Virus record (IMG/VR): IMGVR_UViG_3300046003_003079
Source of the DNA: an uncultured virus (IMG/VR IMGVR_UViG_3300046003_003079)
Taxonomy: Duplodnaviria > Heunggongvirae > Uroviricota > Caudoviricetes > Crassvirales
Reading direction: 5' to 3' (one strand)
Length of the DNA stretch: 20,000 nucleotides
Both the position numbers and the translations under genes were made by a program. Shown here one piece after another: positions 3,001 to 20,000 of the stretch. A model generated the notes under the pieces. That model ran no database searches. It was not told the origin of the DNA and saw only the letters and a program-made list of their open reading frames with translations. Numbering within the stretch: position 1 is the stretch's first letter; every line of letters begins with the position of its first letter.

Positions 3001-6000
3001 ACGCTGCATTTAAACTGCGTGATAAAGCCAGAGAGTTACGTAAGCAAGGTAAAATTAATGAAGCAAATGAAATGGTTGGTCAAGTTTATGATCAAATGCA
3101 ATTTGCTGAACAGAAGGTTGGATTAATGCCAGAGTGGGTATCAGAAACTGGGCCTCGTAAAAAACAAAAGTCAGGTAAGAAGCCACTTCAAAAAGCAATC
3201 GATAAGTCATTCGCGAAGTCTACTAAAAAAGTAGTTATAAATGAGCGTGTTGCACTTAGAGATCAAATAAAATCAGAAGTGAAAGCTGCGCGTACAGCTG
3301 GCCTTGATAAGGTAAGAAAATTCAGAGCGATTGCTGGTGCAGTAAATGCAATGAAGCGTAATGGATCGATCACTTCGAAGCAAGCAATCACTATTGTAAA
3401 CAAGCTTGCAAAAGTTAATTTAGATAGTCCAGTAGCTACGCAGAAATTCATAGATTACGCATCGAAAGTATTCGATAATGCTGATTACAAACAGCAATTG
3501 TCTGATGCATTTAAGATTCAACGACAAATTAAAAACAAGTTAAAAAATGGTCAAGCATCAACTATTGCAGCAGCTAAGGCTTTTGCGTCAATCGATCCAC
3601 TTCTTGTGGATGACTTTAGTGAATACATGGAGTACGCGAACAGAGTGTATTCAGCTGTACGCTCATCTCGTACCACTAATTCAGCGGTAGAATTAAAGTC
3701 TGCTATGGATATCCAAGCGATTAGTGAATATACTGACGCTATGATTGAAGTACAGAATGAAAAAAGAAAGGAAGAAATTCTTGCAGTATACCAAGAACTA
3801 GTAGATGCTGGAGTTATATCTGAAGACATGTCTTTGAAAGATATTCAATCAGTAATAAATTCACTTAAGGACCCGTCCAATAAAGACATCCAAGAGGAAA
3901 GTATTCGTGCATTCATCAATGGAAGAATTGAATTATTAAATAATGATATCCAGTTCATCCTTAAGAATAGCATTGATCCATCTGGAGATAATTTAGAGAT
4001 CACTCCAAGACAGCGAGAACTTATTTCGAAACTGATTAAAATAGATGCGTCAAAACTTTCTATAAAAGAAGCGATTAGACTTGTTGAATTCATGGATAAC
4101 TTCACAGCTAATGGAGTAGTTGATGGGATTGAGGAGGTTAGTTCTATTTACGAAGGTAAAGAAGGCGCTGCTAGAATTAAGAAAGAAGGAATTGTAGCTA
4201 GGTCTTTGAAGACACTTAATGGAAAATTGAGTGGGTCCAAAACAAAAGCTTACGGAGGTGCTATTTGGGCGCAACAGATGATGACATTTGTTACTCTGAA
4301 TGACATGATGTTCAAGGGTGTTCGTAGAGCTGGGAAGGTTCTTACTGAGATGGGATTTTATGCCTTTTCCAATGGTGCCAATAAGGCGAATAATACTTGG
4401 AATAAGATTGTAAATGAATATTCTGACACATTCACTAAGCTAAAACCTAATGGAGAAAAATTTAACACAGCTAAAAATATCTATGAGCGCGGGATGTATG
4501 CGTTCATTAATAGAACTGTAGCTGGTACTGAGGCTCAACAAAAAGAAGAGCTAGCAAGAAAGGTTGGATTGCTTAAGGAAAGTATCTCAAGACTTAAAAA
4601 GAAAGGGGATTTGAAGCAGCAGAAAATGGCTGACATCTACCAAGAGCTATTTGATAAGCTTGGTCTTGATGAAAACAATCTTATCATTTCTGATATTGAG
4701 TCTAGAATCGATCCAATAAATAAGGATGCTGTAAACTGGTGGATTGATGAATGGGGTAAGCACTACTCTGACCTTGCTGATGTAAGTTCAAGCGTGTATA
4801 ATACCATTCTTGGTAAAGATGTAAACTATACCCCAGATGCATTCTCAAAGATTACATCTACGGCTGACAATATTGAACAGATACTTGAGGATAATGGCGG
4901 AGCTTTTGCTGCATCACTTAACTACGTGTACGATAAAAAAGCTGGAGCATTAATGGAATCGAAGAAGTTATCTGGAATGGATATAGATAGATTCGTTAAT
5001 CTAGACTTTGATGCTGTAAATTCTCGTGCGGTTAAATCAGCATTAATTGATATCAATACTGCTGCAGCTACAAGACAGATTCAAGGATTTCTTTCTTCTG
5101 ATGAGTGGAGCGAAATAATTCCAAGTAAAGAAGACAGGGATTTGTATGAAGCAAAACTTAAATCATACATTTTCAGATCTAGAAATAAAATGGCTGGATC
5201 AGCTGACAAAGATTCAACACTTGCAACTATTGAGCGTATCACTAGAACTATGGGTCTTTTAGGTACAACTAAGGCATTAGGTGGAGTTCTTCAGTCAATC
5301 AAGCAAACTGTTCCAGTTATGATTAATACTGCAATCAATACTGGAGAAACAATGAGAATTCTGACTCCATTTAAGGATAAGGATATTCATGACTGGATTG
5401 ATAGAAGTGGGATGGCTATTTCGAATCGTGGAGCTGAATCAAGAACAAACATCGAGGCGGCCCATGACGTATTAGAGAAAGCATTTGAAGGGTCTGCAAT
5501 TGGAAGAGCTACTGAAGAAACATGGAAAGCTATTGAAAAAGCAAATACAATGTGGCTTAAAGTGTTCCTTGCTAATCCAGATGTTTGGGTAGCGAGAAGC
5601 GCATTCATTTCTTACTACAAGCAGGACTTGAAAAGACAAGGAATTGATGCAAGTAATATTGATTGGACTAATCACGAGATGAATACTGAGGCAGCAAACT
5701 ATGCTCAACACATGGTTGATCGCCAGCAGAACGTATCTGATACAAATCTTGGAGGTGAGTTGTTTACAAATGAAAACTTCTACGCAAAAATGCTTAAGAA
5801 TATTTTATTCCCATTTGCATCATTTGCTATAAACCAGAAGTCAAGAATGTATTCAGATGTCGCGACACTCACTTCAACTGATGGTTCATACGAGGATAAA
5901 GTAACAGCAATGAGATCTCTTGGAGGTGTTATTGTTGAGATGCTTGCTTACCAATCGTTAGGTGTAATGATCAGATATGCAATTATTACTGCAGTCAGAG

Positions 6001-6839
6001 AAGCACTTACTGGATATGAGCCAGATGAAGAAGAAAAGGATAAGTGGTTTGCAAATCAAGCAAAATACGCATCAAGACAAACAATAGTCGATCTTGCATC
6101 TCCAGCTCCAATTGCTGATTACTGGGTGATTGAGGCGGTGAATAAAATGATCGGAGCAGTATCTGATCCATCTGATTCTACAATCCAAGATGCAGTAAAT
6201 GTTGAGAATGAAGCAAGAATGCTTAAAGGTGAAGACCCGCTTGATGGATACAAGAAGGATGAATGGATTGCTAACTGGAAGAAAGAACAAGTAAAAGACA
6301 ATCAGTTCTTAAATGATTCAGATATGTCATTCGGTACGCTTGGAATTATTGGCGATAAGGCTGGAAAACTTCTTGATATGATTGAAGTCGCCAATACTGG
6401 AGTACTTAACTATGAGTTTGCAGGACAGAAGCAAGAGAAATTCATTATGGAAAAAGATCGTGAAGCAGTTAAAACAATGATTCCATACATGGCGCTATAC
6501 GTGGCTGGATTCGCACCTAAAGAGGTGGAAGATGCATCGAGATATGTGATAGCTGACACTAAGAAAATGGGTGTTTCAATGAAAAAGGGAGTTACTTATC
6601 AAGAAATTGTAGATTACAATAAAGGGAAAGAAGTTGATAAAATTCAAGCATTCTTGATTGATAAGATGAGAGGTACCGATGACATGAAGGCATCAGAAAG
6701 AATTATTGAGGAGATCGACTGGATCAATGAGAAAGGTGGATTAAGCAATGATAAGCAGATGGATAAATATATCGAAATCTACGAAAGAGATGGCAGCGTT
6801 GGAGCTACCGACATGGAGAAAATCCAGAAGTTAAAGTAA
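6..6839 (+). CDS. Giant multidomain phage protein (large polyvalent / virion-injected type), probably 5'-truncated. Contains a zincin HExxH domain, an HDxxGH domain, a possible SAM-lyase-like domain and a long helical C-terminus
   Basis: 2277-aa ORF; frame is open to the window edge (TCT precedes the ATG). G/A-rich N-terminal region like ejection proteins; TVFHEAFHH...EEFLAE (nt ~1929-2117); FRFVHDFFGH...GEENAW (nt ~2826-2903); followed directly by a terminator. Confidence 0.75.
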   Translation: MGAVSKDAQEDIVRSIVGQGTTAEYMSSDKRNDLTKVLFSLSQTLGQAATGGVLGGGASAASKAASFAPFYAGSYYEMRDQFDSPEFADVSDAQKILFSSLYGTASAVLEKYGLTKSIAKTPMGQGLTNRILNSAIKGLPKDATETQVRDAIENSVINKLKEAGVRTVSAAVIEGSTEAAQSATQITLKETFDLLNDNNYFDNGTGWDIAKQIATEAYLGAIGGGMMSVASSGTRIMADGINKSLNKGQMEMLDAISKLDGMDAAFDAHLKSKVISGEITPAEASEMNKSFREVKANMDKIPTDISIEKKSEAFDLMIERSKIEKEIEGKEDNLVVGQKERIKEINLSLQELSTAKAEPIEANDQVDVQINDQVVVDKPVIAKNATVEVERLKTLAPEVEDGATLNLDGSKYEGVGLVVPVDSINTTTEEITPEMIADFVESRQEMIGDAGVVKAGVYKFPNSNQVSIDLSVVVPETSREQAIEFGKLADQESLFDLGTFENVKTGGTGLNPMKFTPEQHREIATALKEGRVPNVFGSQSQAVEQNELTLDNYSDVEKSIVTNDKDGRATNIAKAARAVLKSLPSAKIYLHNTTEEYRDAIAKAEGSDREQVDIDENGDQQSNGTYLNGGIHIDMSRADASTVFHEAFHHAVVTTEMKKELMRDWVDGLKKIVSDKDLIAKLEGFESRYDGDVDSDKAEEFLAELNAILAEAKTELTTTKLQQFKQLVNSIAKKLGLPAVFKDSDTAQEVLNFMNDMAKNMRQGKEIKTTSVVGDIASRKKRMSEPVAGNKLFSEPLKDASVIAERYSEKSGIEYVDPAKISKLDESNSKAIAAEYDKMKNDPTDPEVKAAYDAMISETIDQYEEIIKDGYVIEVNNNEPYSSSEEMIKDLRDNKRMKIFSTESGFGDDPITDEQRAENPLLQRTKYSDSNGVPLLANDIFRFVHDFFGHAKFGNGFGPVGEENAWRIHSVMYSELARRAVTSETRGQNSWVNFSGVNDAAFKLRDKARELRKQGKINEANEMVGQVYDQMQFAEQKVGLMPEWVSETGPRKKQKSGKKPLQKAIDKSFAKSTKKVVINERVALRDQIKSEVKAARTAGLDKVRKFRAIAGAVNAMKRNGSITSKQAITIVNKLAKVNLDSPVATQKFIDYASKVFDNADYKQQLSDAFKIQRQIKNKLKNGQASTIAAAKAFASIDPLLVDDFSEYMEYANRVYSAVRSSRTTNSAVELKSAMDIQAISEYTDAMIEVQNEKRKEEILAVYQELVDAGVISEDMSLKDIQSVINSLKDPSNKDIQEESIRAFINGRIELLNNDIQFILKNSIDPSGDNLEITPRQRELISKLIKIDASKLSIKEAIRLVEFMDNFTANGVVDGIEEVSSIYEGKEGAARIKKEGIVARSLKTLNGKLSGSKTKAYGGAIWAQQMMTFVTLNDMMFKGVRRAGKVLTEMGFYAFSNGANKANNTWNKIVNEYSDTFTKLKPNGEKFNTAKNIYERGMYAFINRTVAGTEAQQKEELARKVGLLKESISRLKKKGDLKQQKMADIYQELFDKLGLDENNLIISDIESRIDPINKDAVNWWIDEWGKHYSDLADVSSSVYNTILGKDVNYTPDAFSKITSTADNIEQILEDNGGAFAASLNYVYDKKAGALMESKKLSGMDIDRFVNLDFDAVNSRAVKSALIDINTAAATRQIQGFLSSDEWSEIIPSKEDRDLYEAKLKSYIFRSRNKMAGSADKDSTLATIERITRTMGLLGTTKALGGVLQSIKQTVPVMINTAINTGETMRILTPFKDKDIHDWIDRSGMAISNRGAESRTNIEAAHDVLEKAFEGSAIGRATEETWKAIEKANTMWLKVFLANPDVWVARSAFISYYKQDLKRQGIDASNIDWTNHEMNTEAANYAQHMVDRQQNVSDTNLGGELFTNENFYAKMLKNILFPFASFAINQKSRMYSDVATLTSTDGSYEDKVTAMRSLGGVIVEMLAYQSLGVMIRYAIITAVREALTGYEPDEEEKDKWFANQAKYASRQTIVDLASPAPIADYWVIEAVNKMIGAVSDPSDSTIQDAVNVENEARMLKGEDPLDGYKKDEWIANWKKEQVKDNQFLNDSDMSFGTLGIIGDKAGKLLDMIEVANTGVLNYEFAGQKQEKFIMEKDREAVKTMIPYMALYVAGFAPKEVEDASRYVIADTKKMGVSMKKGVTYQEIVDYNKGKEVDKIQAFLIDKMRGTDDMKASERIIEEIDWINEKGGLSNDKQMDKYIEIYERDGSVGATDMEKIQKLK

Positions 6840-6842
6840 AAG

Positions 6843-6872
6843 AAAAACCCGCATAGTGATATGCGGGTTTTT
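6843..6872. terminator. Bidirectional intrinsic terminator between convergent transcription units
   Basis: Perfect inverted repeat AAAAACCCGCATA-gtga-TATGCGGGTTTTT, giving a U-tract on both strands; 4 nt after the + ORF stop and about 35 nt past the stop of the - strand gene ending at 6907. Confidence 0.93.
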
Positions 6873-6906
6873 GTTAAACAACAGCTTAATTGTCTCACCG
6901 ATTAAG

Positions 6907-7203
6907 TTAGTTTTTAATTACGATCCAATCTTCAGCAAGCATATCTGTTTGAGATGCTAGCCAACCCATTAATATCTTATTATCTGCTGTCTTCATTGTG
7001 ATAACTGATAATACATCAGCAGATCCTCCATTTTGTTCTGCAAATGATTTGTTATGCTTATTCCAGAACTTATCCGAAGGTAATGCATCTGTTCCAACTA
7101 AAAGTGCTAACCACATTCCTTTACCGTTCCATCCAGAACGCGCTACTTTTTCTCCATTTTTTAAAGCCTCAATAGCTCCTCCAAATGTCATTTGATTTTC
7201 CAT
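6907..7203 (-). CDS. tad2: DUF2829-family protein, Thoeris anti-defence 2 (Tad2)-like nucleotide-signal sponge
   Basis: 98 aa with the family hallmarks MTFGGAIEALKNGEKVARSGWNGKGMWL at the N-terminus and GWLASQTDMLAEDW at the C-terminus. Confidence 0.85.
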   Translation of the reverse strand: MENQMTFGGAIEALKNGEKVARSGWNGKGMWLALLVGTDALPSDKFWNKHNKSFAEQNGGSADVLSVITMKTADNKILMGWLASQTDMLAEDWIVIKN

Positions 7204-7223
7204 TTATATTTGATTTTAAATTA

Positions 7224-7466
7224 TTACTCCGTAAAATTAGCTTTTACTGCCCACATTGCAGCCTCTTCATAACTTGTCTGAGCAATTGAGATAACTCTAT
7301 GTTTTTCGGAAGAAATATAAGCGCCTTCTACTTCGTGAATCCTCATTTTTTCAACTAAATCAATCAATTCAGCTGATTTGTCTTTGATTTGACTCACCAA
7401 ATCGCTTTTTGCAGGATTAAACTCTGCCTTTACTCGTTTTTGTCCTAATGTTTGAGACATATTCAT
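7224..7466 (-). CDS. Acb2/Tad1-like helical-hairpin protein (candidate cyclic-nucleotide sponge)
   Basis: 80 aa, two long helices; C-terminal R-x-x-S-I-A-Q-T-x-x-E-E-A-A-M-W-A-V-K-A resembles the Acb2/Tad1 hairpin consensus; A/T-rich leader. Confidence 0.7.
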   Translation of the reverse strand: MNMSQTLGQKRVKAEFNPAKSDLVSQIKDKSAELIDLVEKMRIHEVEGAYISSEKHRVISIAQTSYEEAAMWAVKANFTE

Positions 7467-7481
7467 TTAATTTAAATTATT

Positions 7482-7513
7482 ACTAGACTATTAAGCCTGC
7501 CTAGTTTCGGCTT
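7482..7513 (-). other. Predicted intergenic H-type RNA pseudoknot
   Basis: mRNA sense AAGCC-GAA-ACUAGGC-A-GGCUU-AAUA-GUCUAGU: stem 1 AAGCC/GGCUU, stem 2 ACUAGGC/GUCUAGU (one G-U pair). Confidence 0.5.
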
Positions 7514-7824
7514 TATTCAATTATATAAATTCTTGTTGGACGCGTAAACTTATGGATTCCAGTAGCATTATCTACAGTGTAATCCTCAATATCGGATGAG
7601 TGAGGCTTATCACATTTAACTGCATAATGTATTTGGCATCCAGCAATTATAATGTGATTCTCTTCGCTTCCAATTCTTACATACCAGTTAGATGCATTTC
7701 TATTGGTCTTTATTCCAAGAATAGAGTCGTCCATAGTTTCAACTTCACCCCAAACGGCAGCATACTGCTTGCCATCTGGAGCTACAAACCAATTGTCAGT
7801 TGTAATTAAATACTTTCCTTTCAT
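7513..7824 (-). CDS. Hypothetical beta-rich phage protein
   Basis: 103-aa ORF (LITTDNWFVAPDGKQY.AVWG, NWYVRIG, IAGCQIHYAV); ATGA overlap with the upstream gene. Confidence 0.8.
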   Translation of the reverse strand: MKGKYLITTDNWFVAPDGKQYAAVWGEVETMDDSILGIKTNRNASNWYVRIGSEENHIIIAGCQIHYAVKCDKPHSSDIEDYTVDNATGIHKFTRPTRIYIIE

Positions 7825-8006
7825 ATTAACATCAAGTAAATAAATATTTTGTTAATCATTTCAGTTATCGAATATGTGATATGCACACCAAACAACGAAA
7901 GTGCAGTAAAAACTGTCCAAACTGTTAATTTGAATCTCAATGTTTCAGTCTTGTCGTGGATAATTAACGCTGTAAGCGTGATCCACAATAGTATAAAGGC
8001 CCACAT
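7821..8006 (-). CDS. Small membrane protein with two hydrophobic segments
   Basis: 61 aa; MWAFILLWITLTALII and LTVWTVFTALSLFGVHI; TAATG and ATGA overlaps with its neighbours indicate translational coupling. Confidence 0.65.
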   Translation of the reverse strand: MWAFILLWITLTALIIHDKTETLRFKLTVWTVFTALSLFGVHITYSITEMINKIFIYLMLI

Positions 8007-10670: not shown

Positions 10671-12336
10671 AAAGCGGTATATTTAATCTGTTTCTTAATT
10701 CAATTTGTCTCTGAGGCAACTGGTATATCTCATTGGAAATAAAAGTCCCAGAAGCATCAATTTTTGTATTCTTTTCAACATGCTCGATGATATGATACAC
10801 ATCAAGAATACTTTCAGCAATAAACGCCAGTACTCTTTGCTGAGTCATTTCTGGCAGCGTTATTTTCTGATGGTCGGTAAGCCGTCCGTGAGGCAGTTTA
10901 AGTTCTATTCCAAAAAACAGTGATGACTTACTGAAGAATACACTGTTGTCTGGAAGTCCGTTCTTCGAAGCGAAATGGACCCATTGGCCTTTATCTTTTG
11001 GATTTTTATGATCCTTAATAAACGCCTTGCCGCTATTCTGTCTCCACCAGAAATATCCAGTTTTCTTAAGAAAGCTATTTACATCTTCCTGCAGATCAGA
11101 CTCAAGTTTATAAACCTTTCCATCATAGATATCAAGTAAACTTCCAATACGCTTCAAATATATCTGTTTTTCTTCAGATAATACAAGTTTTATTTCATTT
11201 CTTTTTTCATTATCCAGATCTAGGCCCAATTGCCTATCAATCACCTTGGATATTTTCTTCTTGAAAAGCAGCGTCTTACGATCATCTGGAAGTCCGTGTT
11301 CCTCAATGTTTCCAACACAGTCCATAAGAATACAGTCTGGCTTGCCGTTCGCAATTGACTCTTCTAATGACTGGCCTAGCAGTCTAATGCCACGCCCGCA
11401 TTCCTGTACGTACTTTCTCCATGACTTTGTAATGGTAGCAAGCACAACACACATAACTGTTGGATCATCAAATCCAGCGGTAAGAATCTCAATTGATATA
11501 AGTCCTTTCAATTCTCCGTCAGCATATGCCTTTAGAATCTTCAAACGTTTAGCTGGGGACGTGTCTGCTGTTATTATTTCAGTCTGGATTCCCTTTCTAC
11601 CGAACGCATCTTTTAAGTCGCTACAGTGCTTCTTATTGACGGCAAAACATATAAACTTTCTGTTCTCACAGATTTTAATGTAGTTGTCAACAATAGAGTC
11701 ATTTATGTCGTCCTTATTAATTACCTCCGATAATGACTTCTCATCGTAATCAGAATCATTTTGCTTAACCTTGGATACATTCACACTCATGGGGCAGAAT
11801 ACTTTGAAGGGTGTTAACCATCCAAGCTCCATCAGATCTTTCGTCTGGTAGTCATCAATGATTGAATCAAATCCTTCTAAAAGAAATCCACGGTCATCTA
11901 CTGGTGTAGCAGACAGTCCGATAAATATCGCATCTGGAAACTTATCAAACAGTGATTGAATCAGGTTTGACTCGTATGCATAATGGACCTCATCGACTAT
12001 AATTATTTTTGGTGGACGTATTTCAGTATTGATTAATGTCTGGATGGTTGCAACTGTAAGTAGTGATTCTTCCTTAAAGTCTGTACTGTTTCCTTGAAGA
12101 TAGTTTGGATTAAGCGATTCAAACTTCTTTGCCGACTGCTCGGCAAGAACTATCCTATGGCTCGTAAATAAGACACCATTTCCTTTTGCAAGGGCGCTTC
12201 TAATGATGTCAAATGATAGGATTGTCTTGCCGAATGAAGTCGGTGCAAAAACCAATATCTTCTTGCTTCCTTGACTGATTGCTGTCTTGATTTTATCTCT
12301 GACAACAATCTGCGGTGGTCGTAGTTGGTAGGACAT
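10660..12336 (-). CDS. SF2 (DExH) helicase fused to a C-terminal VRR-NUC-like PD-(D/E)xK nuclease
   Basis: LRPPQ, APTSFGKT, DEVH, SAT, ILTAGFDDP, QECGRGIR; C-terminus ESDLQ...NGLPDN...FFGIELKLPHGRLTDHQ. Confidence 0.88.
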   Translation of the reverse strand: MSYQLRPPQIVVRDKIKTAISQGSKKILVFAPTSFGKTILSFDIIRSALAKGNGVLFTSHRIVLAEQSAKKFESLNPNYLQGNSTDFKEESLLTVATIQTLINTEIRPPKIIIVDEVHYAYESNLIQSLFDKFPDAIFIGLSATPVDDRGFLLEGFDSIIDDYQTKDLMELGWLTPFKVFCPMSVNVSKVKQNDSDYDEKSLSEVINKDDINDSIVDNYIKICENRKFICFAVNKKHCSDLKDAFGRKGIQTEIITADTSPAKRLKILKAYADGELKGLISIEILTAGFDDPTVMCVVLATITKSWRKYVQECGRGIRLLGQSLEESIANGKPDCILMDCVGNIEEHGLPDDRKTLLFKKKISKVIDRQLGLDLDNEKRNEIKLVLSEEKQIYLKRIGSLLDIYDGKVYKLESDLQEDVNSFLKKTGYFWWRQNSGKAFIKDHKNPKDKGQWVHFASKNGLPDNSVFFSKSSLFFGIELKLPHGRLTDHQKITLPEMTQQRVLAFIAESILDVYHIIEHVEKNTKIDASGTFISNEIYQLPQRQIELRNRLNIPLYGT

Positions 12337-12337
12337 A

Positions 12338-13243
12338 TTACTCTACGTTTTCGCTGTCGTTAAATACACGATCAATGATTTCGTTTAAGTATTCCCTGCT
12401 CAATTCAAATGAAGGTGTCTTTTCCATCTTATCTCTCAGTATTTTTATGAGCATTGAGAAATAAGCGATATCAACTCCGATCAATTGCTCTTCAAGAACA
12501 TCTGGATCTTTTAAATTAAGTTCTGATATCTGAAACATAATCTTCAAGTACTCTCCAGCTCCAATCTTCCACCCTCTATTGATGAATTTCTTTGATCGAA
12601 TGATTGATGTAAGTGGGTACAAAGATCCTTGATACTTAAGTTGCTTTGTGAGTAACGACTCCAATGCCTCCTTGTTTGTTACAAGTCCATCTTTGAAGGT
12701 GAAATAATTTGTAGCATGAATGAAGTCAAATGTTTTATGAATCTGTTCATTGTCACCGTGGAATCTACAAACTATTTGCAAGTCGTCAGTAAGGCTTATT
12801 GCGTTTGGAGAGAAGAATGCTGGAGCATATTTTTTTGTTACTCCTTCAGTTGTATTTTCAATTGCTGGGACCTTGAATCCTTCGTTCACATTGATCTTGA
12901 TTTGATCATATTTAACTGTTCGAAGAGCTACTATTCTTTGGCATTTGTTATTTAGCGATACGTCTCCAAACTCATTGGCAATCATTGCTGCAGTTTTTCT
13001 TCCATCAAGCACTTCCAGATTGAATGGACTTGTGTAGTAAATAACTAATTTCTTGAGTACATCCATTGACTTGATGTACACATCAAAGTCATTTACTGGT
13101 TCGTTCAGCATCATTGATGCGATTGATCCTCCAGATACAAGTAAGTTATCCTTAACTTCTTTTCTTAATGATTCATCAGTTATTGTTGATAACCAATCAT
13201 TCATTTTGTGTTCTAATACTGATTTAATTGTTTTTAGTTGCAT
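12338..13243 (-). CDS. Pol-beta-superfamily nucleotidyltransferase (CCA/poly(A) polymerase head-like)
   Basis: LVSGGSIAS...VNDFDVY signature; FDFIH echoes the RDF motif; RSKKFINRGW. Confidence 0.75.
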   Translation of the reverse strand: MQLKTIKSVLEHKMNDWLSTITDESLRKEVKDNLLVSGGSIASMMLNEPVNDFDVYIKSMDVLKKLVIYYTSPFNLEVLDGRKTAAMIANEFGDVSLNNKCQRIVALRTVKYDQIKINVNEGFKVPAIENTTEGVTKKYAPAFFSPNAISLTDDLQIVCRFHGDNEQIHKTFDFIHATNYFTFKDGLVTNKEALESLLTKQLKYQGSLYPLTSIIRSKKFINRGWKIGAGEYLKIMFQISELNLKDPDVLEEQLIGVDIAYFSMLIKILRDKMEKTPSFELSREYLNEIIDRVFNDSENVE

Positions 13244-13245
13244 GT

Positions 13246-13422
13246 TTAATATTTTTGTTGTTTAATTACTGATATAGTTTGATTGATAGTTCTTTCCTTT
13301 ACTTCTCGTGCAAATTCAACAAGAAAATTATCTAGAAATTGCCCTCCATGATCGCGTTTAACCCTTTGTCTTGGATCCATACCTCTCTTTTCAAGGTATT
13401 TAATTACAGCTTCTTTTGTCAT
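13246..13422 (-). CDS. Hypothetical protein, 58 aa (not in the supplied ORF track)
   Basis: Manual translation MTKEAVIKYLEKRGMDPRQRVKRDHGGQFLDNFLVEFAREVKERTINQTISVIKQQKY*; ATGA overlap upstream; stop lies 2 nt before the next ATG. Confidence 0.7.
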   Translation of the reverse strand: MTKEAVIKYLEKRGMDPRQRVKRDHGGQFLDNFLVEFAREVKERTINQTISVIKQQKY

Positions 13423-13775
13423 GATTTAAATTTTTGGTTGTAGTATTGTTCAAACGATTCGTGCTTAAATCCAATCATATGATAAGTTAATCTTGATTCA
13501 TTGAAAGCGTCTTCAGTATTTTGCTTTTCCATTTCTTTGGCTTGTTTGATTAATGGTATCAACTTATCACTATTGGATATTTGAAACCTTATTTGTTCTT
13601 CAAGCCATTCTACTGCTGTTTTCATAGTTATACATTTATGGTTTTCCCAATCCCATTTTATAAAAGTGTCACCAATTATTTGTTGAATGGATGGTAAATC
13701 ACTTTGGTCTTTATAAATTGCATGAATTATTCCATTGCATTTAGGACATTTTGGATTTGCTCTTATTACTGCCAT
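13419..13775 (-). CDS. Hypothetical protein with N-terminal CPKC and a C-terminal KTAVEWL...QAKEMEK module
   Basis: 118-aa ORF within the operon. Confidence 0.7.
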   Translation of the reverse strand: MAVIRANPKCPKCNGIIHAIYKDQSDLPSIQQIIGDTFIKWDWENHKCITMKTAVEWLEEQIRFQISNSDKLIPLIKQAKEMEKQNTEDAFNESRLTYHMIGFKHESFEQYYNQKFKS

Positions 13776-13779
13776 ATCT

Positions 13780-13974
13780 CTACTGATTTTTAAGTATTTC
13801 TTCTAGTCTTTCAAGTCTTAATTTTAATGCTTGATTTTCTTGTTCTTGTTTTTTAATTCTTGAATTATAATTCACACAACGATTACATCGTAACTGTGGA
13901 AACGGAAATGAATATCCTGTACGAACTGTTTTACCACCACATTTAGGGCATTTTGGATTGCTAAATAGTCCCAT
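13780..13974 (-). CDS. Small zinc-ribbon protein with coiled-coil tail
   Basis: CPKC...CNRC, then QENQALKLRLERLEEIL. Confidence 0.7.
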   Translation of the reverse strand: MGLFSNPKCPKCGGKTVRTGYSFPFPQLRCNRCVNYNSRIKKQEQENQALKLRLERLEEILKNQ

Positions 13975-16403: not shown

Positions 16404-16763
16404 TTAAAACGGAAGCGGCTCTCCGTCTTCGTTTGTAACCACAGATGGAGCCGATGCGCTATTTGCTTGTGATCCTACTCCACCAATTACTTCAACTCTC
16501 CATCCGTCAAGTGTATTGAAGTACTTCTCTTCTCCTTGAGGTGATACCCATAATCTTCCTCGGAGATTCCATGATACTTCAACTTCTTGCCCTTCCATGA
16601 TACCATCTAAGTGAGATGTTTTATCTTTGGCGAATTCGAACGAAATATCTTGTGGATACATACTTGATGCGTCAGTAATTACCAATTCTCTCTTAGAAAA
16701 TTTCTCAGACACTTGGATAGTTTCTCCAACTTTCTTTACTACTCCTGTTAATTTAAAACTCAT
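16404..16763 (-). CDS. DUF3127-family single-stranded DNA-binding protein
   Basis: FSKRELVI...YPQDISFEF...VEVSWNLRGRLW...YFNTLDGWR; flexible linker and acidic tail ending EDGEPLPF. Confidence 0.85.
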   Translation of the reverse strand: MSFKLTGVVKKVGETIQVSEKFSKRELVITDASSMYPQDISFEFAKDKTSHLDGIMEGQEVEVSWNLRGRLWVSPQGEEKYFNTLDGWRVEVIGGVGSQANSASAPSVVTNEDGEPLPF

Positions 16764-17308
16764 TTGATTTGATTTTTATTGTTTATATTAGTTATTCTTT
16801 TTGATATAGCTGCGATACTCAATCCGAATTCAAGACTGATTGATTTTAGCGTTTCTCCATTATTAAATCTAATGAATGCGTCTAATTCTTGTGCGTCAGT
16901 TATTTTTGAATTATGATGTTTCTCACCGCTATTTAATTTTATTAAGTTGTTCTTATAAGCATGAATTATGTTTTCTCTATTGGATGCCCATTCTAAATTT
17001 AGAAAGTTATTATCTAGCTTTATACCGTTTTTATGGTTTACTTGATCTTTATTTTCTGGATTCGGTACAAATGCTTTAGCGACAAGTCTATGTACGCCAG
17101 TATTGTATCCAGAACCATTTTTACGAAGACATACTTGACGATATCCTTTTTTAGATACTTGAAGTTTGAGAGTTCTGCCTACTTGTATCCTGCATCTACT
17201 ATCTTTCATTTTAACATCATGATCTAAGGATTTAACAATGCCATTGCTAGAAACCATATAAATTCCTTCATAACCAACAACATCTCTCCATTCTTCATGC
17301 TCAATCAT
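16760..17308 (-). CDS. NUMOD4-HNH homing endonuclease with C-terminal HTH (free-standing mobile gene)
   Basis: EEWRDVVGYEGIYMVSSNG (NUMOD4); VHRLVAKAFVPN...VNHKNGIKLDN...NLEW (HNH); visibly AT-richer than its neighbours. Confidence 0.92.
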   Translation of the reverse strand: MIEHEEWRDVVGYEGIYMVSSNGIVKSLDHDVKMKDSRCRIQVGRTLKLQVSKKGYRQVCLRKNGSGYNTGVHRLVAKAFVPNPENKDQVNHKNGIKLDNNFLNLEWASNRENIIHAYKNNLIKLNSGEKHHNSKITDAQELDAFIRFNNGETLKSISLEFGLSIAAISKRITNINNKNQIK

Positions 17309-17310
17309 AA

Positions 17311-18120
17311 CTACTTATTTTTGGCAATTAATTTATTATAATATTCCTCTGCATATTTAAGCGCTGCAGTGGTTCTGCGCTCTATTTTCGCGATGTCGTC
17401 ATCCGTCAGTGTGTACTCGGCAAATGTAATCCTTAATTTCGGATCCAAGTCATCCATGTAGTGTAGCGAATCATCCTCCCAGTCTGGAACAAGTCCTTCT
17501 GGTGTGGATACCAACACATACACAAGTTTGAATGTACGCCAGTCAGTCGTACCTGACTGCTTGTTTTTAAGATACAGATACATTTTACCCTGCCATTCGT
17601 AAGTTGAGTTAGATATCTTCTCAGGAAGCTTAGGAAATGTATCTTTATTCCATGAGCACTTGATGTCAATAATCTGCTTCTCAACTTCATCCTCGATGTC
17701 TGGATGACCTCCGTGCGGACCGTGCAAAAGTTCTGACTCAGACTTTACAAAGTCACGCATCCATAATGAATTCAAGATTTCAATCCCTTCATCCTCTACA
17801 GTAGTACCTTTCTCCATTTCTTTATTGGACAGTGTAGTCTTGTAGTTATAAACGATTCGATCAACTAATCCCTCAACATATGTTTTGGCTCCAGCTCCTA
17901 GTTCAATCAGTCCAGCATCAACTGATGTTTGGATTTTTTGAAGTCGATTCATTTCTTCCTTCATGTTGTCAGTCAGATCTTTAGCCTTGTCCTCTCCATT
18001 CTTGAATGCCTTTAGTCTTGCAATGTGCCCGTCAAGTGTTGCTTTCTGTGCTGCTGTTAGCCCGTCATCTCCTAGAAATAACGGTGCTGATGATGAGGCT
18101 CTAAACTTTAGGTTTAACAT
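17311..18120 (-). CDS. YqaJ/lambda-exonuclease-like PD-(D/E)xK nuclease
   Basis: FRASS, MEKGTTVE, GHPD...IIDIKCSW, YEWQGKMY. Confidence 0.8.
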   Translation of the reverse strand: MLNLKFRASSSAPLFLGDDGLTAAQKATLDGHIARLKAFKNGEDKAKDLTDNMKEEMNRLQKIQTSVDAGLIELGAGAKTYVEGLVDRIVYNYKTTLSNKEMEKGTTVEDEGIEILNSLWMRDFVKSESELLHGPHGGHPDIEDEVEKQIIDIKCSWNKDTFPKLPEKISNSTYEWQGKMYLYLKNKQSGTTDWRTFKLVYVLVSTPEGLVPDWEDDSLHYMDDLDPKLRITFAEYTLTDDDIAKIERRTTAALKYAEEYYNKLIAKNK

Positions 18121-18601
18121 CTTTCAGTGTTTTTTCTTGGTCTGGAGTAAGTGATCGAATAGACTTAATCTTTTCGAATGTAGTCTTGCCTTGTTCGATC
18201 TGAGAAATTGCTGCAGCTAGTCCATCAGCTGGGATTGGAGGAAGTTTTGGAGCAGGTGCTGGACGTGTTGAGAAACGTAACGCATCGACCATTTCACCTC
18301 TGAATTTCTCCTTCTCTACGGTAAGTAGTACTTGCTTTCCAATGTACGCTGCATAATCAATTGTTCCAAACAACTTCTCAAGTCGAGTGAAGTTTTTGAT
18401 TTGCATTACCATTGGTTTTACAAACTCCTTGAATTTAACGAACGGCTTGTCTTCTGTGCCGCCTTGAGATGTGAATTCTCCAACGTAGATTTTCTCAATT
18501 GTCACAGTCATGTTTTTGTACTTTCCGTTCTCTTCCAAATCCCACGAGCCAAGATACTTTTGATTCTGGATTAATGTTCTCCAGTGTTTTTGTTCTGACA
18601 T
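18101..18601 (-). CDS. Phage protein at the usual recombinase position; candidate ssDNA-binding/annealing protein
   Basis: 166 aa (HWR...KYLGSWDL, beta-rich core, Pro linker, helical tail) directly upstream of the exonuclease; function inferred from gene order only. Confidence 0.55.
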   Translation of the reverse strand: MSEQKHWRTLIQNQKYLGSWDLEENGKYKNMTVTIEKIYVGEFTSQGGTEDKPFVKFKEFVKPMVMQIKNFTRLEKLFGTIDYAAYIGKQVLLTVEKEKFRGEMVDALRFSTRPAPAPKLPPIPADGLAAAISQIEQGKTTFEKIKSIRSLTPDQEKTLKDVKPKV

Positions 18602-18610
18602 ATTTAAATT

Positions 18611-19006
18611 TTAATTGGTTGCAAACTTAGATAAATTTTTTGACAATTCCTTGTATCGAAGAATTTTTTCTTCCAAAACATTTCTTCTGTCAATAAGTTC
18701 ATCATGATTTTTCATATGCTTGATGAGGTAATTGCACTTCTCAAGCTTTGATTCTAAGGTGTTGATACATACGTTATAACATCCTTCAAGCCAGCCTTTA
18801 GTCTCGAATATATTGTACTCATGACTTGATACCTCCTTATAGAAGTCTCCAGCTAGCATGCAGTTCTTTATGGTGATACTTCCGTCACGCATTTTTTCAA
18901 TCCTGACTCCATGATCGATGTAATACTCACTGGACTTATTTTCACTCGTCCCGTAATGATACAGCGTTATATTTGGATCAGACTCTAACTGTTGCCATGC
19001 TTTCAT
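18611..19006 (-). CDS. Hypothetical protein
   Basis: 131-aa ORF; ATGA overlap with the upstream gene. Confidence 0.75.
   Translation of the reverse strand: MKAWQQLESDPNITLYHYGTSENKSSEYYIDHGVRIEKMRDGSITIKNCMLAGDFYKEVSSHEYNIFETKGWLEGCYNVCINTLESKLEKCNYLIKHMKNHDELIDRRNVLEEKILRYKELSKNLSKFATN
18622..18629 (-). promoter_or_regulatory. Candidate Bacteroidota -7 promoter element upstream of the recombination module
   Basis: TAAGTTTG followed by caaccaattaaaatttaaat-ATG (18601); no canonical TTTG at -33. Confidence 0.45.
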
Positions 19007-20000
19007 GATTTGAAATTTACAAGTTTTTTAAATCGCTCAAGTCCATATGCGTTTGTTTTTTCAAGTATTGGAATTAACTCATCAGCACGATAAGATTCTT
19101 CAACCATGTTATTTCTTTGCATCCAGTCTTTAACACCTAATTCACACGCGCCAGTTATCAATCTGTAATAATTGATTGTAATGATTGTGTCAGCATTGAT
19201 TGGTTCGTTTTTTAGTTTTTCAGAAACTAATTTAAAGTTCAAGTCATCAATTGATTTTTTGACTGTTTCTCCATGTGCTGTGAAATTATCTTTTTGAGCA
19301 ATGAAACCATGAGACCATAAAACCTTGTTATCTGATATTTTTAATTGATAAAATCCTGAATAGATTTTAATTCCTTTGGTTGTTTTTGTGTTTTCAACTA
19401 AAAACATTACACAATCAAAACGCACAACATCGTATTTTTTCTTATCAATAACAGCAATGTTATTGTTAATTGTAAGTGCAGGAGCCGTGAATGTAGCGCC
19501 CTCTTGAACATCAACGTAACCCGATACTTCGGTAAGTGCAGGAGCCGTGAATGTAGCGCCCTCTTGAACATAAACGTAACCCGATTTTGTAAGTGCAGGA
19601 GCCGTGAATGTAGCGCCCTGACGAACATAAACGGAACCCGATTTTGTAAGTGCAGGAGCCGTGAATATAGCGCCCTGACGAACATCAACGTAACCCGATA
19701 CTTCGGTAAGTGCAGGAGCCGTGAATGTAGCGCCCTCTTGAACATCAACGGAACCCGATTTTGTAAGTGCAGGAGCCGTGAATGTAGCGCCCTGACGAAC
19801 ATCAACGTAACCCGATACTTCGGTAAGTGCAGGAGCCGTGAATGTAGCGCCCTGACGAACATCAACGGAACCCGATTTTGTAAGTGCAGGAGCCGTGAAT
19901 GTAGCGCCCTGACGAACATAAACGGAACCCGATACTTCGGTAAGTGCAGGAGCCGTGAATGTAGCGCCCTGACGAACATAAACGGAACCCGATACTTCGG
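19003..20000 (-). CDS. Tandem-repeat (LRR / L-domain-like solenoid) protein with a C-terminal AHG...YRLITGAC domain; 5' end lies outside the window
   Basis: The frame of track ORF 19003..19425 stays open to 20000: (EVSG[SY]V[DY]V[RQ/QE]GATFTAPALT)n, then INNNIAVIDKKKYDVVRFDCVMF...; the GTG at 19425 is therefore internal. Confidence 0.85.
   Translation of the reverse strand, partial: EVSGSVYVRQGATFTAPALTEVSGSVYVRQGATFTAPALTKSGSVDVRQGATFTAPALTEVSGYVDVRQGATFTAPALTKSGSVDVQEGATFTAPALTEVSGYVDVRQGAIFTAPALTKSGSVYVRQGATFTAPALTKSGYVYVQEGATFTAPALTEVSGYVDVQEGATFTAPALTINNNIAVIDKKKYDVVRFDCVMFLVENTKTTKGIKIYSGFYQLKISDNKVLWSHGFIAQKDNFTAHGETVKKSIDDLNFKLVSEKLKNEPINADTIITINYYRLITGACELGVKDWMQRNNMVEESYRADELIPILEKTNAYGLERFKKLVNFKS
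19472..20000. repeat. Coding tandem array of at least 9 units of 57/60 bp
   Basis: GTAAGTGCAGGAGCCGTGAATGTAGCGCCCT begins at 19472, 19532, 19589, 19646 (one mismatch), 19706, 19763, 19823, 19880 and 19940; the array runs off the window. Confidence 0.97.

What the first reader, a model, noticed from the sequence alone, without database searches (positions are those of the whole stretch)
19472..20000. Combinatorially shuffled 'binary code' in a coding repeat array
Seen: nine units are identical except at four biallelic sites, all amino-acid changing (linker EV/K, S/Y, D/Y, RQ/QE), plus one T>I singleton. N->C haplotypes: EV-S-Y-RQ, EV-S-Y-RQ, K-S-D-RQ, EV-Y-D-RQ, K-S-D-QE, EV-Y-D-RQ, K-S-Y-RQ, K-Y-Y-QE, EV-Y-D-QE (7 distinct). 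All four allele combinations occur for each adjacent pair of sites, although some sites are only about 5 nt apart, and there are no independent silent changes. Simple duplication plus drift does not give this pattern. Inference: fine-scale recombination or gene conversion between two parental units diversifies alternating positions of one beta-strand (G-x-V-x-V-x), i.e. one face of a solenoid. This would be a TALE/VLR-like tunable binding surface in a phage protein that lies upstream of the phage's own recombination genes.
Basis: partly seen in the sequence, partly recalled or inferred. Interest (0 to 1): 0.8.

Follow-up and report, generated by a model that had tools for sequence, protein, structure and literature searches.

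The report
Binary-coded solenoid repeats in phage protein
A lake-water phage gene encodes a stack of nearly identical 19/20-residue repeats that differ only at four two-state surface positions, a pattern shared by a whole undescribed family of phage early proteins and best explained by repeat homogenisation plus selection on a binding surface.

Summary
Window 19472-20000 (minus strand) holds 9 units of 57/60 nt. They are identical except at four two-state sites (EV/K, S/Y, D/Y, RQ/QE) and one T>I singleton. The haplotypes are as reported, and all four combinations occur for each adjacent site pair.

The array is cut by the window end. The full protein (391 aa) has a 20-aa cap, 11 units and a 150-aa C-terminal domain. 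AlphaFold2 (pLDDT 96) gives a three-stranded beta-solenoid.

The new result is that the code is family-wide. In 44 related arrays, within-array diversity sits at the same four positions. The scaffold codons are identical within a genome but differ, mostly synonymously, between genomes. All 16 haplotypes occur.

So the pattern is concerted evolution by unequal recombination, with selection holding four exposed sites in a small alphabet. It is not two parental units shuffled in this phage. I found no reverse transcriptase and no donor cassette.

The C-terminal domain has no Pfam family and no solved fold. It carries other repeat types in relatives. The gene usually lies in the phage recombination module. 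Function is unknown; a retargetable binding surface is my inference. Unit order needs long reads: 48 of 110 family genes run open into contig ends.

The parts
19472..20000 (-). Repeat array: units 3-11 of an 11-unit array of 57/60-nt (19/20-aa) beta-solenoid rungs, cut by the window end. Unit limits on the + strand are 19998-19942, 19941-19882, 19881-19825, 19824-19765, 19764-19708, 19707-19648, 19647-19591, 19590-19534 and 19533-19474.
   Evidence: TRF; ORF; unit listing; full-length P0001; AF2 model.
19666..19668 (-). Singleton T>I codon (ATA instead of ACA) in the sixth unit of the window.
   Evidence: The depth bin 19642-19695, which holds this codon, is 0 in runs X1 and X3 and covered in X2 and X4.
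19003..19471 (-). C-terminal domain of about 150 aa (a beta-meander followed by helices) with the stop codon. Nearly invariant His, Cys, Lys, Arg and Asp. No Pfam family and no solved fold.
   Evidence: Alignments A1 and A2; AF2 pLDDT 92; fold searches; Pfam 0 of 43 members; 1382 representative clusters at E<=0.001.
18611..19006 (-). Next gene in the operon, 131 aa, no family found.
18101..18601 (-). 166-aa gene, phrog_21613 (unknown function).
17311..18120 (-). Recombination exonuclease (phrog_5715).
   Evidence: E 2.9e-35.
16404..16763 (-). Single-strand DNA-binding protein (DUF3127, phrog_4932), which follows an HNH/NUMOD4 endonuclease gene at 16760-17308.

Best explanation
The array encodes the N-terminal three-stranded beta-solenoid, one rung per 19/20-aa unit, of a 391-aa phage protein. 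The protein has no hydrophobic N-terminal leader by eye, so I read it as cytoplasmic, and its place at the head of the recombination/replication operon suggests early expression; both points are inferred. Its conserved 150-aa C-terminal domain is the constant part of a large undescribed family.

The 'binary code' has two causes.
1. Homogenisation. Frequent unequal crossing-over or gene conversion between the tandem units keeps every scaffold codon identical within a genome, silent positions included. It also changes copy number and reassorts the variable sites.
2. Selection. Four positions are held polymorphic in a small alphabet: S/Y, D/Y, R/Q-type and Q/E, plus a 2- or 3-residue linker. I infer these positions to be exposed.

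Shown: the solenoid fold, the concerted evolution, the family-wide sharing of the variable positions, the reassortment, and the absence of a DGR or donor cassette in the nearest genome.

Inferred: the four sites form a binding surface that is retargeted by repeat turnover. That surface would aim the constant C-terminal domain at a host factor, plausibly a host nuclease or defence protein, given the position at the head of the recombination module.
For: Fold:
- AF2 gives pLDDT 96.1 with three short strands per unit.
- VIA-align finds beta-solenoids: pertactin 2iou_H (Z 18.4, rmsd 4.8, 257 aligned), TibA 4q1q_B (Z 15.8), and the Parabacteroides putative adhesin 3ljy_A (Z 14.1, rmsd 3.2, 179 aligned).

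Concerted evolution:
- Within arrays, scaffold codons differ by 0-0.67 nt of 39. L016 gives 2.0, which comes only from its degenerate last unit.
- Between arrays, consensus scaffolds differ at 6-17 of 39 nt. Window versus L010 is 7 of 39, all synonymous.
- Even the third base of the D/Y codon is homogenised: GAT/TAT here, GAC/TAC in L010.

Family-wide code:
- In 44 arrays (234 units), within-array diversity is 0.55, 0.57, 0.59 and 0.37 at core positions 3, 5, 7 and 8. It is <=0.10 elsewhere, except 0.19 at position 16.
- Position 3 is exactly {S,Y} in 25 of 44 arrays. Position 5 is exactly {D,Y} in 23 of 44. Linker length is mixed in 32 of 42.
- All 16 of 16 haplotypes occur among 81 canonical units from 29 proteins.

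Turnover:
- Relatives whose C-domains are 83-98% identical have 1, 4 and 11 units.
- L010 shows a 5-unit block duplication, and L006 a hybrid 'TV' linker.

Modularity:
- The same C-domain carries BspA-type LRRs in Riemerella phage CRP6 and repeats of other periods with Y/D/N/S-variable positions in other relatives.
- The same units follow a PcfJ-like domain in P0008 and P0039.

Context: 9 of the 13 loci I examined have an exonuclease, Erf/RecT or NinB within about 3 genes.

No RVT_1 and no copy of the unit outside the array in G001.
Against: - No partner, ligand or activity is known. The C-domain has no Pfam, PHROG, PADLOC or PDB match, so the 'binding surface' is inference.
- Exposure of the variable residues is inferred from the in/out alternation around the invariant Val residues, not measured on coordinates.
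- Long-term maintenance and recurrent convergent selection of the same residues cannot be told apart.
- The window and G001 arrays are identical over 9 units although the genomes differ by 2-9% elsewhere, so turnover is not fast on that scale.
- Weak associations between sites exist: R/Q with Q/E has OR 3.1, p 0.0035; S/Y with Q/E has p 0.011. The sites are therefore not fully independent.
- Unit order comes from short-read assemblies only.
Confidence: 0.6

Rival explanations
1. Programmed, high-rate diversification. The phage's own recombination proteins shuffle the units during each infection, so a population carries many array variants. This is.
For: - The gene sits next to an exonuclease, SSB, Erf/RecT or NinB in 9 of 13 loci.
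- An isolate-derived prophage record (L009) has N exactly at dimorphic nucleotides.
- The bin that holds the T>I codon has no depth in 2 of 4 runs.
- Near relatives have 1, 4 and 11 units.
Against: - The window and G001, two separate records that are 91-98% identical over the stretches that align, have identical arrays over 9 units.
- There is no reverse transcriptase and no donor copy in G001.
- Adjacency to recombination genes is also the usual place for early accessory genes.
- N at collapsed repeats is a common assembly outcome.
- No read-level data were available; all four runs are kept as contigs.
Confidence: 0.13
2. Structural tuning, not ligand recognition. The two-state sites balance charge, stacking and rung length so that a long solenoid stays soluble and straight. 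The array would be a spacer or ruler for the C-terminal domain.
For: - Three of the four sites toggle charge (E/K, D/Y, RQ/QE).
- The solenoid is near neutral, with 18 acidic and 16 basic residues.
- There is a weak tendency to opposite charges on neighbouring rungs: total z -1.6, and R(i) with D(i+1) z -2.1, uncorrected.
- A one-unit relative exists (P0009).
Against: - No neighbour anticorrelation at any single site (z -0.25 to -0.77).
- Array net charge is no closer to zero than in shuffled arrays (z -0.17).
- S/Y carries no charge.
- The same kind of Y/D/N/S variation appears in unrelated LRR-type repeats on the same C-domain.
Confidence: 0.15
3. Assembly artefact. The mosaic order, or the whole pattern, was produced when a short-read assembler threaded near-identical units from mixed strains.
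For: - The G001 contig ends inside the array after two identical units.
- 35 of 80 viral loci and 13 of 30 genome loci have this gene running open into a contig end.
- Logan k=31 contigs break the array into pieces; the listed ones are 44-61 nt.
- Two strains co-occur in run X4.
Against: - The same pattern is found in complete arrays inside long contigs: L010, L016 and L006, and the Pontibacter burrus WGS contig of 1.03 Mb.
- A second contig gives a protein 100% identical over the 331 aa.
- An artefact would not reproduce the same four positions across diverged codon backgrounds.
- What remains at risk is the order and the copy number here, not the phenomenon.
Confidence: 0.05
4. Polymer-reading code. 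Each rung reads one monomer of a periodic ligand such as ssDNA, a DNA end or a glycan through its four variable residues, as TALE or PUF repeats read bases.
For: - Units identical at the DNA level apart from a few coded residues is the TALE pattern (abstracts seen in the listing: PMC4522561, PMC5512977).
- From my recall, not from a call: R, Q, E, Y, S and D are the residue types used by PUF and TALE codes.
- The gene lies in the recombination module.
Against: - There is no nucleic-acid-binding family or fold match.
- The solenoid is not basic.
- Close relatives have 1 to 11 units, which is hard to square with one conserved target.
- No candidate target repeat was identified.
Confidence: 0.07

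Closest known systems
TAL effector repeat arrays (Xanthomonas/Ralstonia)
   Same: Tandem units that are nearly identical at the DNA level and differ at a few coded residues. The arrays change by recombination. (Abstracts seen in the listing: PMC4522561, PMC5512977.)
   Different: TALE repeats are 33-35-aa helical hairpins that read DNA through residues 12/13. Here the units are 19/20-aa beta rungs with four two-state sites and the ligand is unknown.
Toastrack / DUF4097 single-stranded beta-helix (PF13349)
   Same: P0001 scores 24.5 bits against a cut-off of 22.9. The model aligns to the Parabacteroides putative adhesin 3ljy_A at Z 14.1, rmsd 3.2, 179 aligned; that this entry is a DUF4097 structure is my recall.
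   Different: The match is marginal: the window fragment alone scores 15.5 bits. The known Toastrack literature concerns envelope-stress (Psp) proteins (listing). Neither the perfect DNA-level repeats nor this C-terminal domain is described for that family.
Leucine-rich-repeat binders (BspA-type LRR_5, internalins, lamprey VLRs)
   Same: A solenoid whose variable residues sit on alternating strand positions. Relatives of this protein carry true LRR_5 repeats on the same C-domain (19 of the 120 listed hits).
   Different: P0001 has no LRR Pfam hit. Foldseek LRR matches are weak, E >= 5.5e-3. VLR assembly from flanking cassettes has no counterpart here.
Diversity-generating retroelement targets (Bordetella phage Mtd)
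   Same: A phage protein with a restricted set of variable positions.
   Different: G001 has no reverse transcriptase and no template repeat. The changes are not adenine-specific: C/A, G/T, and a 3-nt allele. The fold hit to entry 2iou is to its pertactin chain, not to Mtd.
Synthetic Tyr/Ser 'binary code' binding libraries
   Same: Binding surfaces built from a two-letter Y/S alphabet. (Abstract seen in the listing: PMC11006224. The earlier antibody and monobody work is recalled.)
   Different: Those libraries are man-made. Here the restricted alphabet is natural, and its role in binding is untested.
Lambda Gam / P22 Abc2 (host-nuclease inhibitors at the head of phage recombination operons)
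   Same: Position only: an accessory gene just upstream of the exonuclease and annealase genes. The Gam and Abc2 gene order is recalled.
   Different: No sequence or fold relation was found, and the function was not tested.

Membership tests
Toastrack / DUF4097 (PF13349) | Sequence score at or above Pfam's gathering cut-off. | tested here: inconclusive
   Full-length P0001 scores 24.5 bits against a cut-off of 22.9. The window fragment scores 15.5 bits, below it. The score comes from a low-complexity repeat.
Toastrack / DUF4097 (PF13349) | Single-stranded right-handed beta-helix fold. | tested here: met
   AF2 model with pLDDT 96.1. Alignments: 3ljy_A Z 14.1, 3jx8_A Z 13.4, 3lyc_A Z 12.7, 3pet_B Z 11.6. 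Many unrelated beta-helices score as high or higher, so the shared fold does not prove kinship.
BspA-type LRR (PF13306) | Pfam match and the LRR repeat motif. | tested here: not met
   No PF13306 hit for P0001. Relatives with other repeats do carry it.
TAL effector | 33-35-aa two-helix repeats with a variable di-residue. | tested here: not met
   The units are 19/20 aa and all-beta.
TAL effector | One repeat reads one base of DNA. | not testable with these tools
   No binding assay was possible.
Diversity-generating retroelement target | Reverse transcriptase and a template repeat nearby, with adenine-specific changes. | tested here: not met
   No RVT_1 in G001, which is 91% complete. Unit DNA is found only inside the array. 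The changes are C/A, G/T and a multi-nucleotide allele.
VLR-type cassette assembly | Donor LRR cassettes flanking an incomplete gene. | tested here: not met
   No further unit copies in the 55.5-kb record.
AIDA-I/Ag43 autotransporter repeats | A family-level sequence score. | tested here: not met
   The relative P0003 scores 26.7 bits (Ag43) and 23 bits (AIDA-I) against cut-offs of 1200. P0001 has no hit to either family.
C-terminal domain family (unnamed) | Conserved AHG...DLxFK...YRxxTGAC motifs at the C-terminus. | tested here: met
   Invariant H, K, R, T, A, C and G columns in 43 sequences. 102 of 120 hits carry the domain. 1382 representative clusters at E<=0.001.

The most novel reading that the evidence does not exclude
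This is a natural combinatorial binder. In a family of phage early proteins, each solenoid rung is an interchangeable module with 2^4 states. Arrays are rewritten by unequal recombination, possibly helped by the neighbouring phage recombination genes. This retargets a constant and possibly catalytic (conserved His/Cys) C-terminal domain to new host proteins or to a periodic polymer. It would be a beta-solenoid counterpart of TALE repeats built on a Tyr/Ser/Asp minimal alphabet.
Probability: 0.2. Interest if true: 0.85.

Novelty: new variant of a known kind. Interest (0 to 1): 0.6.

Why it matters
If the four sites are a binding code, this family would be a naturally evolved, minimal-alphabet, modular recognition scaffold. 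It would give a clean case for studying how selection holds single codons polymorphic against strong repeat homogenisation.

It also flags a large unannotated domain family: 1382 representative clusters with no Pfam family and no solved fold. The family sits in the recombination module of phages whose named bacterial records are mostly Bacteroidota, where host-takeover and anti-defence genes are often found.

There is a practical point too. These arrays break short-read assemblies in 48 of 110 loci, so the family is systematically truncated in databases.

Tried and rejected
Searches on the window and its relatives:
- The window's own assembly is not held.
- megablast against the phage collection found nothing.
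- tblastn found only two Riemerella phages, through the C-domain.
- The exact 31-mer scan of viral contigs found only G001.

C-terminal domain:
- Sequence libraries gave nothing: PDB, PHROGs, PADLOC, NCBIfam and Pfam (0 of 43 members significant).
- Foldseek against PDB gave nothing at E<=0.001.
- VIA-align gave a best Z of 4.8.
- BFVD returned only uncharacterised phage proteins.
- The ESM Atlas returned only hypothetical viral clusters and no named cluster.

Other searches:
- The search for longer fused forms found one weak hit at E 3.9e-4.
- Earlier findings of this scan: nothing.

Sequencing runs:
- No raw or long reads were available. The four holder runs are kept as Logan contigs, which cannot order the units.
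- The parts without cover in X1 and X3 are not evidence of absence.

Hypotheses tested on the arrays:
- A/B alternation of units is rejected: no neighbour autocorrelation.
- Charge balancing has only weak support.
- A DNA-mimic reading is unlikely because the solenoid is near neutral.
- An ice-binding reading of the invariant T-x-T strand was considered and not pursued. It rests on a weak PF11999 hit in one relative (E 0.0021, below the cut-off) and a generic fold match to 3p4g.

Not run:
- Complex prediction was not used, because no specific partner is claimed.

Literature:
- Searches for a prior description returned no paper on this family.
- I saw only listings and the starts of abstracts, and read no paper in full.

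Full report
**1. The observation**

Tandem Repeats Finder reports one array at 19472-20000 with period 60, 9.0 copies and 91% matches. Periods 117 and 174 score as well. The coding frame is on the minus strand: ORF 19003..19998, 331 aa, open at its 5' end.

The four two-state sites are:
- the linker, ACC GAA GTA versus ACA AAA;
- S/Y, TCC versus TAC;
- D/Y, GAT versus TAT;
- RQ/QE, CGTCAG versus CAAGAG.

There is also one T>I singleton (ATA, 19666-19668). All four combinations occur for each adjacent pair of sites. The only silent difference (ACC/ACA) is fully linked to EV/K.

Between units, the 39 scaffold nucleotides differ on average by 0.22 nt and the 12 nucleotides of the four variable codons by 2.61 nt.

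**2. The array is truncated**

The window's own assembly is not held. The nearest record, G001, is a 55,507-bp viral contig judged 91% complete. It is 100% identical over window 18500-20000, and it ends 7 nt beyond the window end, right after two identical tandem units. The aligned stretches of the rest of the window are 91-98% identical to G001, and parts do not align.

A protein search returned P0001, 391 aa and 100% identical over the 331 aa. It has a 20-aa N-terminal cap, 11 units and the C-terminal part. The two units missing from the window are EV-S-Y-QE and K-S-Y-QE.

The junction between the cap and the first unit appears as a loose end in 3 of the 4 runs laid. Those runs are four lake-water metagenomes holding 78-90% of the sampled words. 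They are kept only as k=31 contigs, which shatter the array (the listed pieces are 44-61 nt) and cannot order the units.

**3. What the protein is**

AlphaFold2 on an 81-sequence alignment gives pLDDT 96.1. Every unit forms three short strands: E-V or K-S, then V-x-V, then T-F-T. This solenoid is followed by a beta-meander-plus-helices domain.

VIA-align against 48,161 chains finds right-handed beta-helices:
- pertactin 2iou_H, Z 18.4, rmsd 4.8, 257 aligned;
- Vag8, Z 18.1;
- TibA, Z 15.8;
- MpAFP 3p4g, Z 15.9;
- 3ljy_A, a Parabacteroides putative adhesin, Z 14.1 (that it belongs to the toastrack/DUF4097 family is my recall).

Foldseek gives only weak LRR rows, E >= 5.5e-3. Pfam places P0001 just over the DUF4097 cut-off, 24.5 against 22.9 bits.

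In the strand S-V-Y-V-R the two invariant Val alternate with the variable S/Y, D/Y and R/Q. I therefore infer that three of the four sites point outward on one sheet and that the linker site lies across the adjacent corner. I could not read the model's coordinates, so exposure is inferred, not measured.

**4. The code is family-wide**

This is the main new result. Relatives at 55-89% identity show the same two-state sites, while other positions change in all units together, for example V to I and F to L.

At the DNA level, units are identical within each genome except at those sites, and silent positions differ between genomes. Consensus scaffolds differ at 6-17 of 39 nt, mostly synonymously. 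Window versus L010 is 7 of 39, all synonymous. Even the third base of the D/Y codon is homogenised: GAT/TAT here and GAC/TAC in L010.

Over the 44 arrays with three or more parsed units (234 units, from the 120 listed hits), one search gives:

| Measure | Result |
|---|---|
| Within-array diversity at core positions 3, 5, 7, 8 | 0.55, 0.57, 0.59, 0.37 |
| Within-array diversity elsewhere | <=0.10 (0.19 at position 16) |
| Between-array consensus divergence at scaffold positions 4, 9, 12, 13, 16 | 0.39-0.60 |
| Position 3 exactly {S,Y} | 25 of 44 arrays |
| Position 5 exactly {D,Y} | 23 of 44 arrays |
| Mixed linker length | 32 of 42 arrays |

Among 81 units from 29 proteins that carry the window's alleles at all four sites, all 16 of 16 haplotypes occur.

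Associations between sites are weak. The strongest are R/Q with Q/E (OR 3.1, p 0.0035) and S/Y with Q/E (p 0.011). Neighbouring units are not anticorrelated (z -0.25 to -0.77).

**5. How the pattern arises**

Recombination between units is required. The RQ/QE alleles differ at three nucleotides and EV/K by an indel plus substitutions. Both are found on all backgrounds of sites 7-9 nt away, with no intermediate in the 9 units whose DNA is held; the protein sequence of P0001 shows none in its 11 units either.

Three further observations show turnover by unequal exchange:
- L006 carries a hybrid 'TV' linker.
- L010 shows a five-unit block duplication with a linked silent marker.
- Relatives whose C-domains are 83-98% identical have 1, 4 and 11 units.

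Because the whole array is homologous, one crossover between misaligned units can fall in a 5-nt interval. No special fine-scale mechanism is needed.

By established theory of tandem-repeat evolution (crossover fixation, recalled), such exchange alone would erase the dimorphisms. Their persistence on diverged silent backgrounds therefore implies selection. This could be long-term maintenance or repeated reselection of the same small alphabet.

G001 has no RVT_1. Unit DNA is found only inside the array. A DGR or a donor-cassette system is therefore not supported.

**6. The constant part and the context**

The 150-aa C-terminal domain is present in 102 of the 120 hits. It has invariant His, Lys, Arg, Thr, Ala, Cys and Gly columns.

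It matches no Pfam family (0 of 43 members significant) and no PDB sequence. VIA-align finds no solved fold at Z >= 5 (best 4.8). It does match uncharacterised phage proteins in BFVD. A profile search finds 1382 representative clusters at E <= 0.001 and 816 at E <= 1e-10, with the domain mostly at or near the C-terminus among the 150 listed.

Its N-terminal partner varies:
- the 19/20-aa units described here;
- BspA-type LRRs, in 19 of the 120 hits by precomputed Pfam and in Riemerella phage CRP6, where the gene is annotated 'ribonuclease inhibitor';
- repeats of periods 18-24 and about 40, again with Y/D/N/S/R-variable positions.

The same units also follow a PcfJ-like domain in P0008 and P0039.

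Gene order in the window is: array gene, a 131-aa gene, a 166-aa gene (phrog_21613), an exonuclease, an HNH endonuclease, an SSB, then a primase-helicase. Of the 13 loci I examined, 9 have an exonuclease, Erf/RecT or NinB within about three genes. In L010 the gene is the first of its operon. Named bacterial records are mostly Bacteroidota.

**7. Function**

Function is unknown. My best reading is a constant effector or anchor domain aimed by a rapidly re-written solenoid surface at a host factor. Its position at the head of the recombination module recalls host-nuclease inhibitors such as lambda Gam. That comparison is by position only and is recalled from memory.

Rival readings:
- programmed shuffling;
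- structural or charge tuning, which has only weak support (adjacent-rung charge product z -1.6);
- a one-rung-one-monomer polymer code;
- assembly error in the unit order.

**8. Assembly caveat**

In 35 of 80 viral loci and 13 of 30 genome loci, the gene's frame runs open into a contig end on the repeat side. These arrays therefore routinely break short-read assemblies. The copy number here is best taken as provisional, because identical tandem units can be collapsed by short-read assembly.

**9. Prior knowledge**

Full-text searches listed no description of this family. For the TALE and Tyr/Ser-library comparisons I saw only listings and the starts of abstracts. I read no paper in full.

Noticed in passing
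window 6-6839 (+): A 2277-aa ORF with no Pfam family. Its only match is a partial one to phrog_3170 (unknown function), over residues 824-996.
   Followed up: partly
window 16760-17308 (-): An HNH/NUMOD4 endonuclease gene lies between the exonuclease and SSB genes. The window and G001 are mosaic: stretches around 6850-7828 and 12336-13971 do not align.
   Followed up: no
L009 4001-4816: The prophage record has N exactly at dimorphic nucleotides of its array: the third base of the Thr codon and the first base of the D/Y codon. This means either collapsed reads or real heterogeneity.
   Followed up: no
window 19472-20000, third strand of each unit: Every unit has an invariant T-F-T strand, which gives two threonine ladders along the solenoid. 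From recall, this resembles the TxT ice-binding motif. The antifreeze protein 3p4g is among the fold matches (Z 15.9), and the runs that hold the phage are lake-water metagenomes.
   Followed up: no
P0008, P0039 (relatives): The same 19/20-aa units, with the same variable positions, form the C-terminal half of proteins whose N-terminal domain is PcfJ-like (PF14284, 26-27 bits against a cut-off of 25).
   Followed up: partly
window 19003-19455 (-), C-terminal domain: The invariant His (in AHG) and Cys (in TGAC), together with nearly invariant Asp, suggest a possible Cys-His active site in a fold with no solved relative. Whether the two residues lie close in 3D was not checked.
   Followed up: no
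window 19013-19282, run X4: A second strain at similar depth carries 10 substitutions in the C-terminal-domain coding region (table 3).
   Followed up: no
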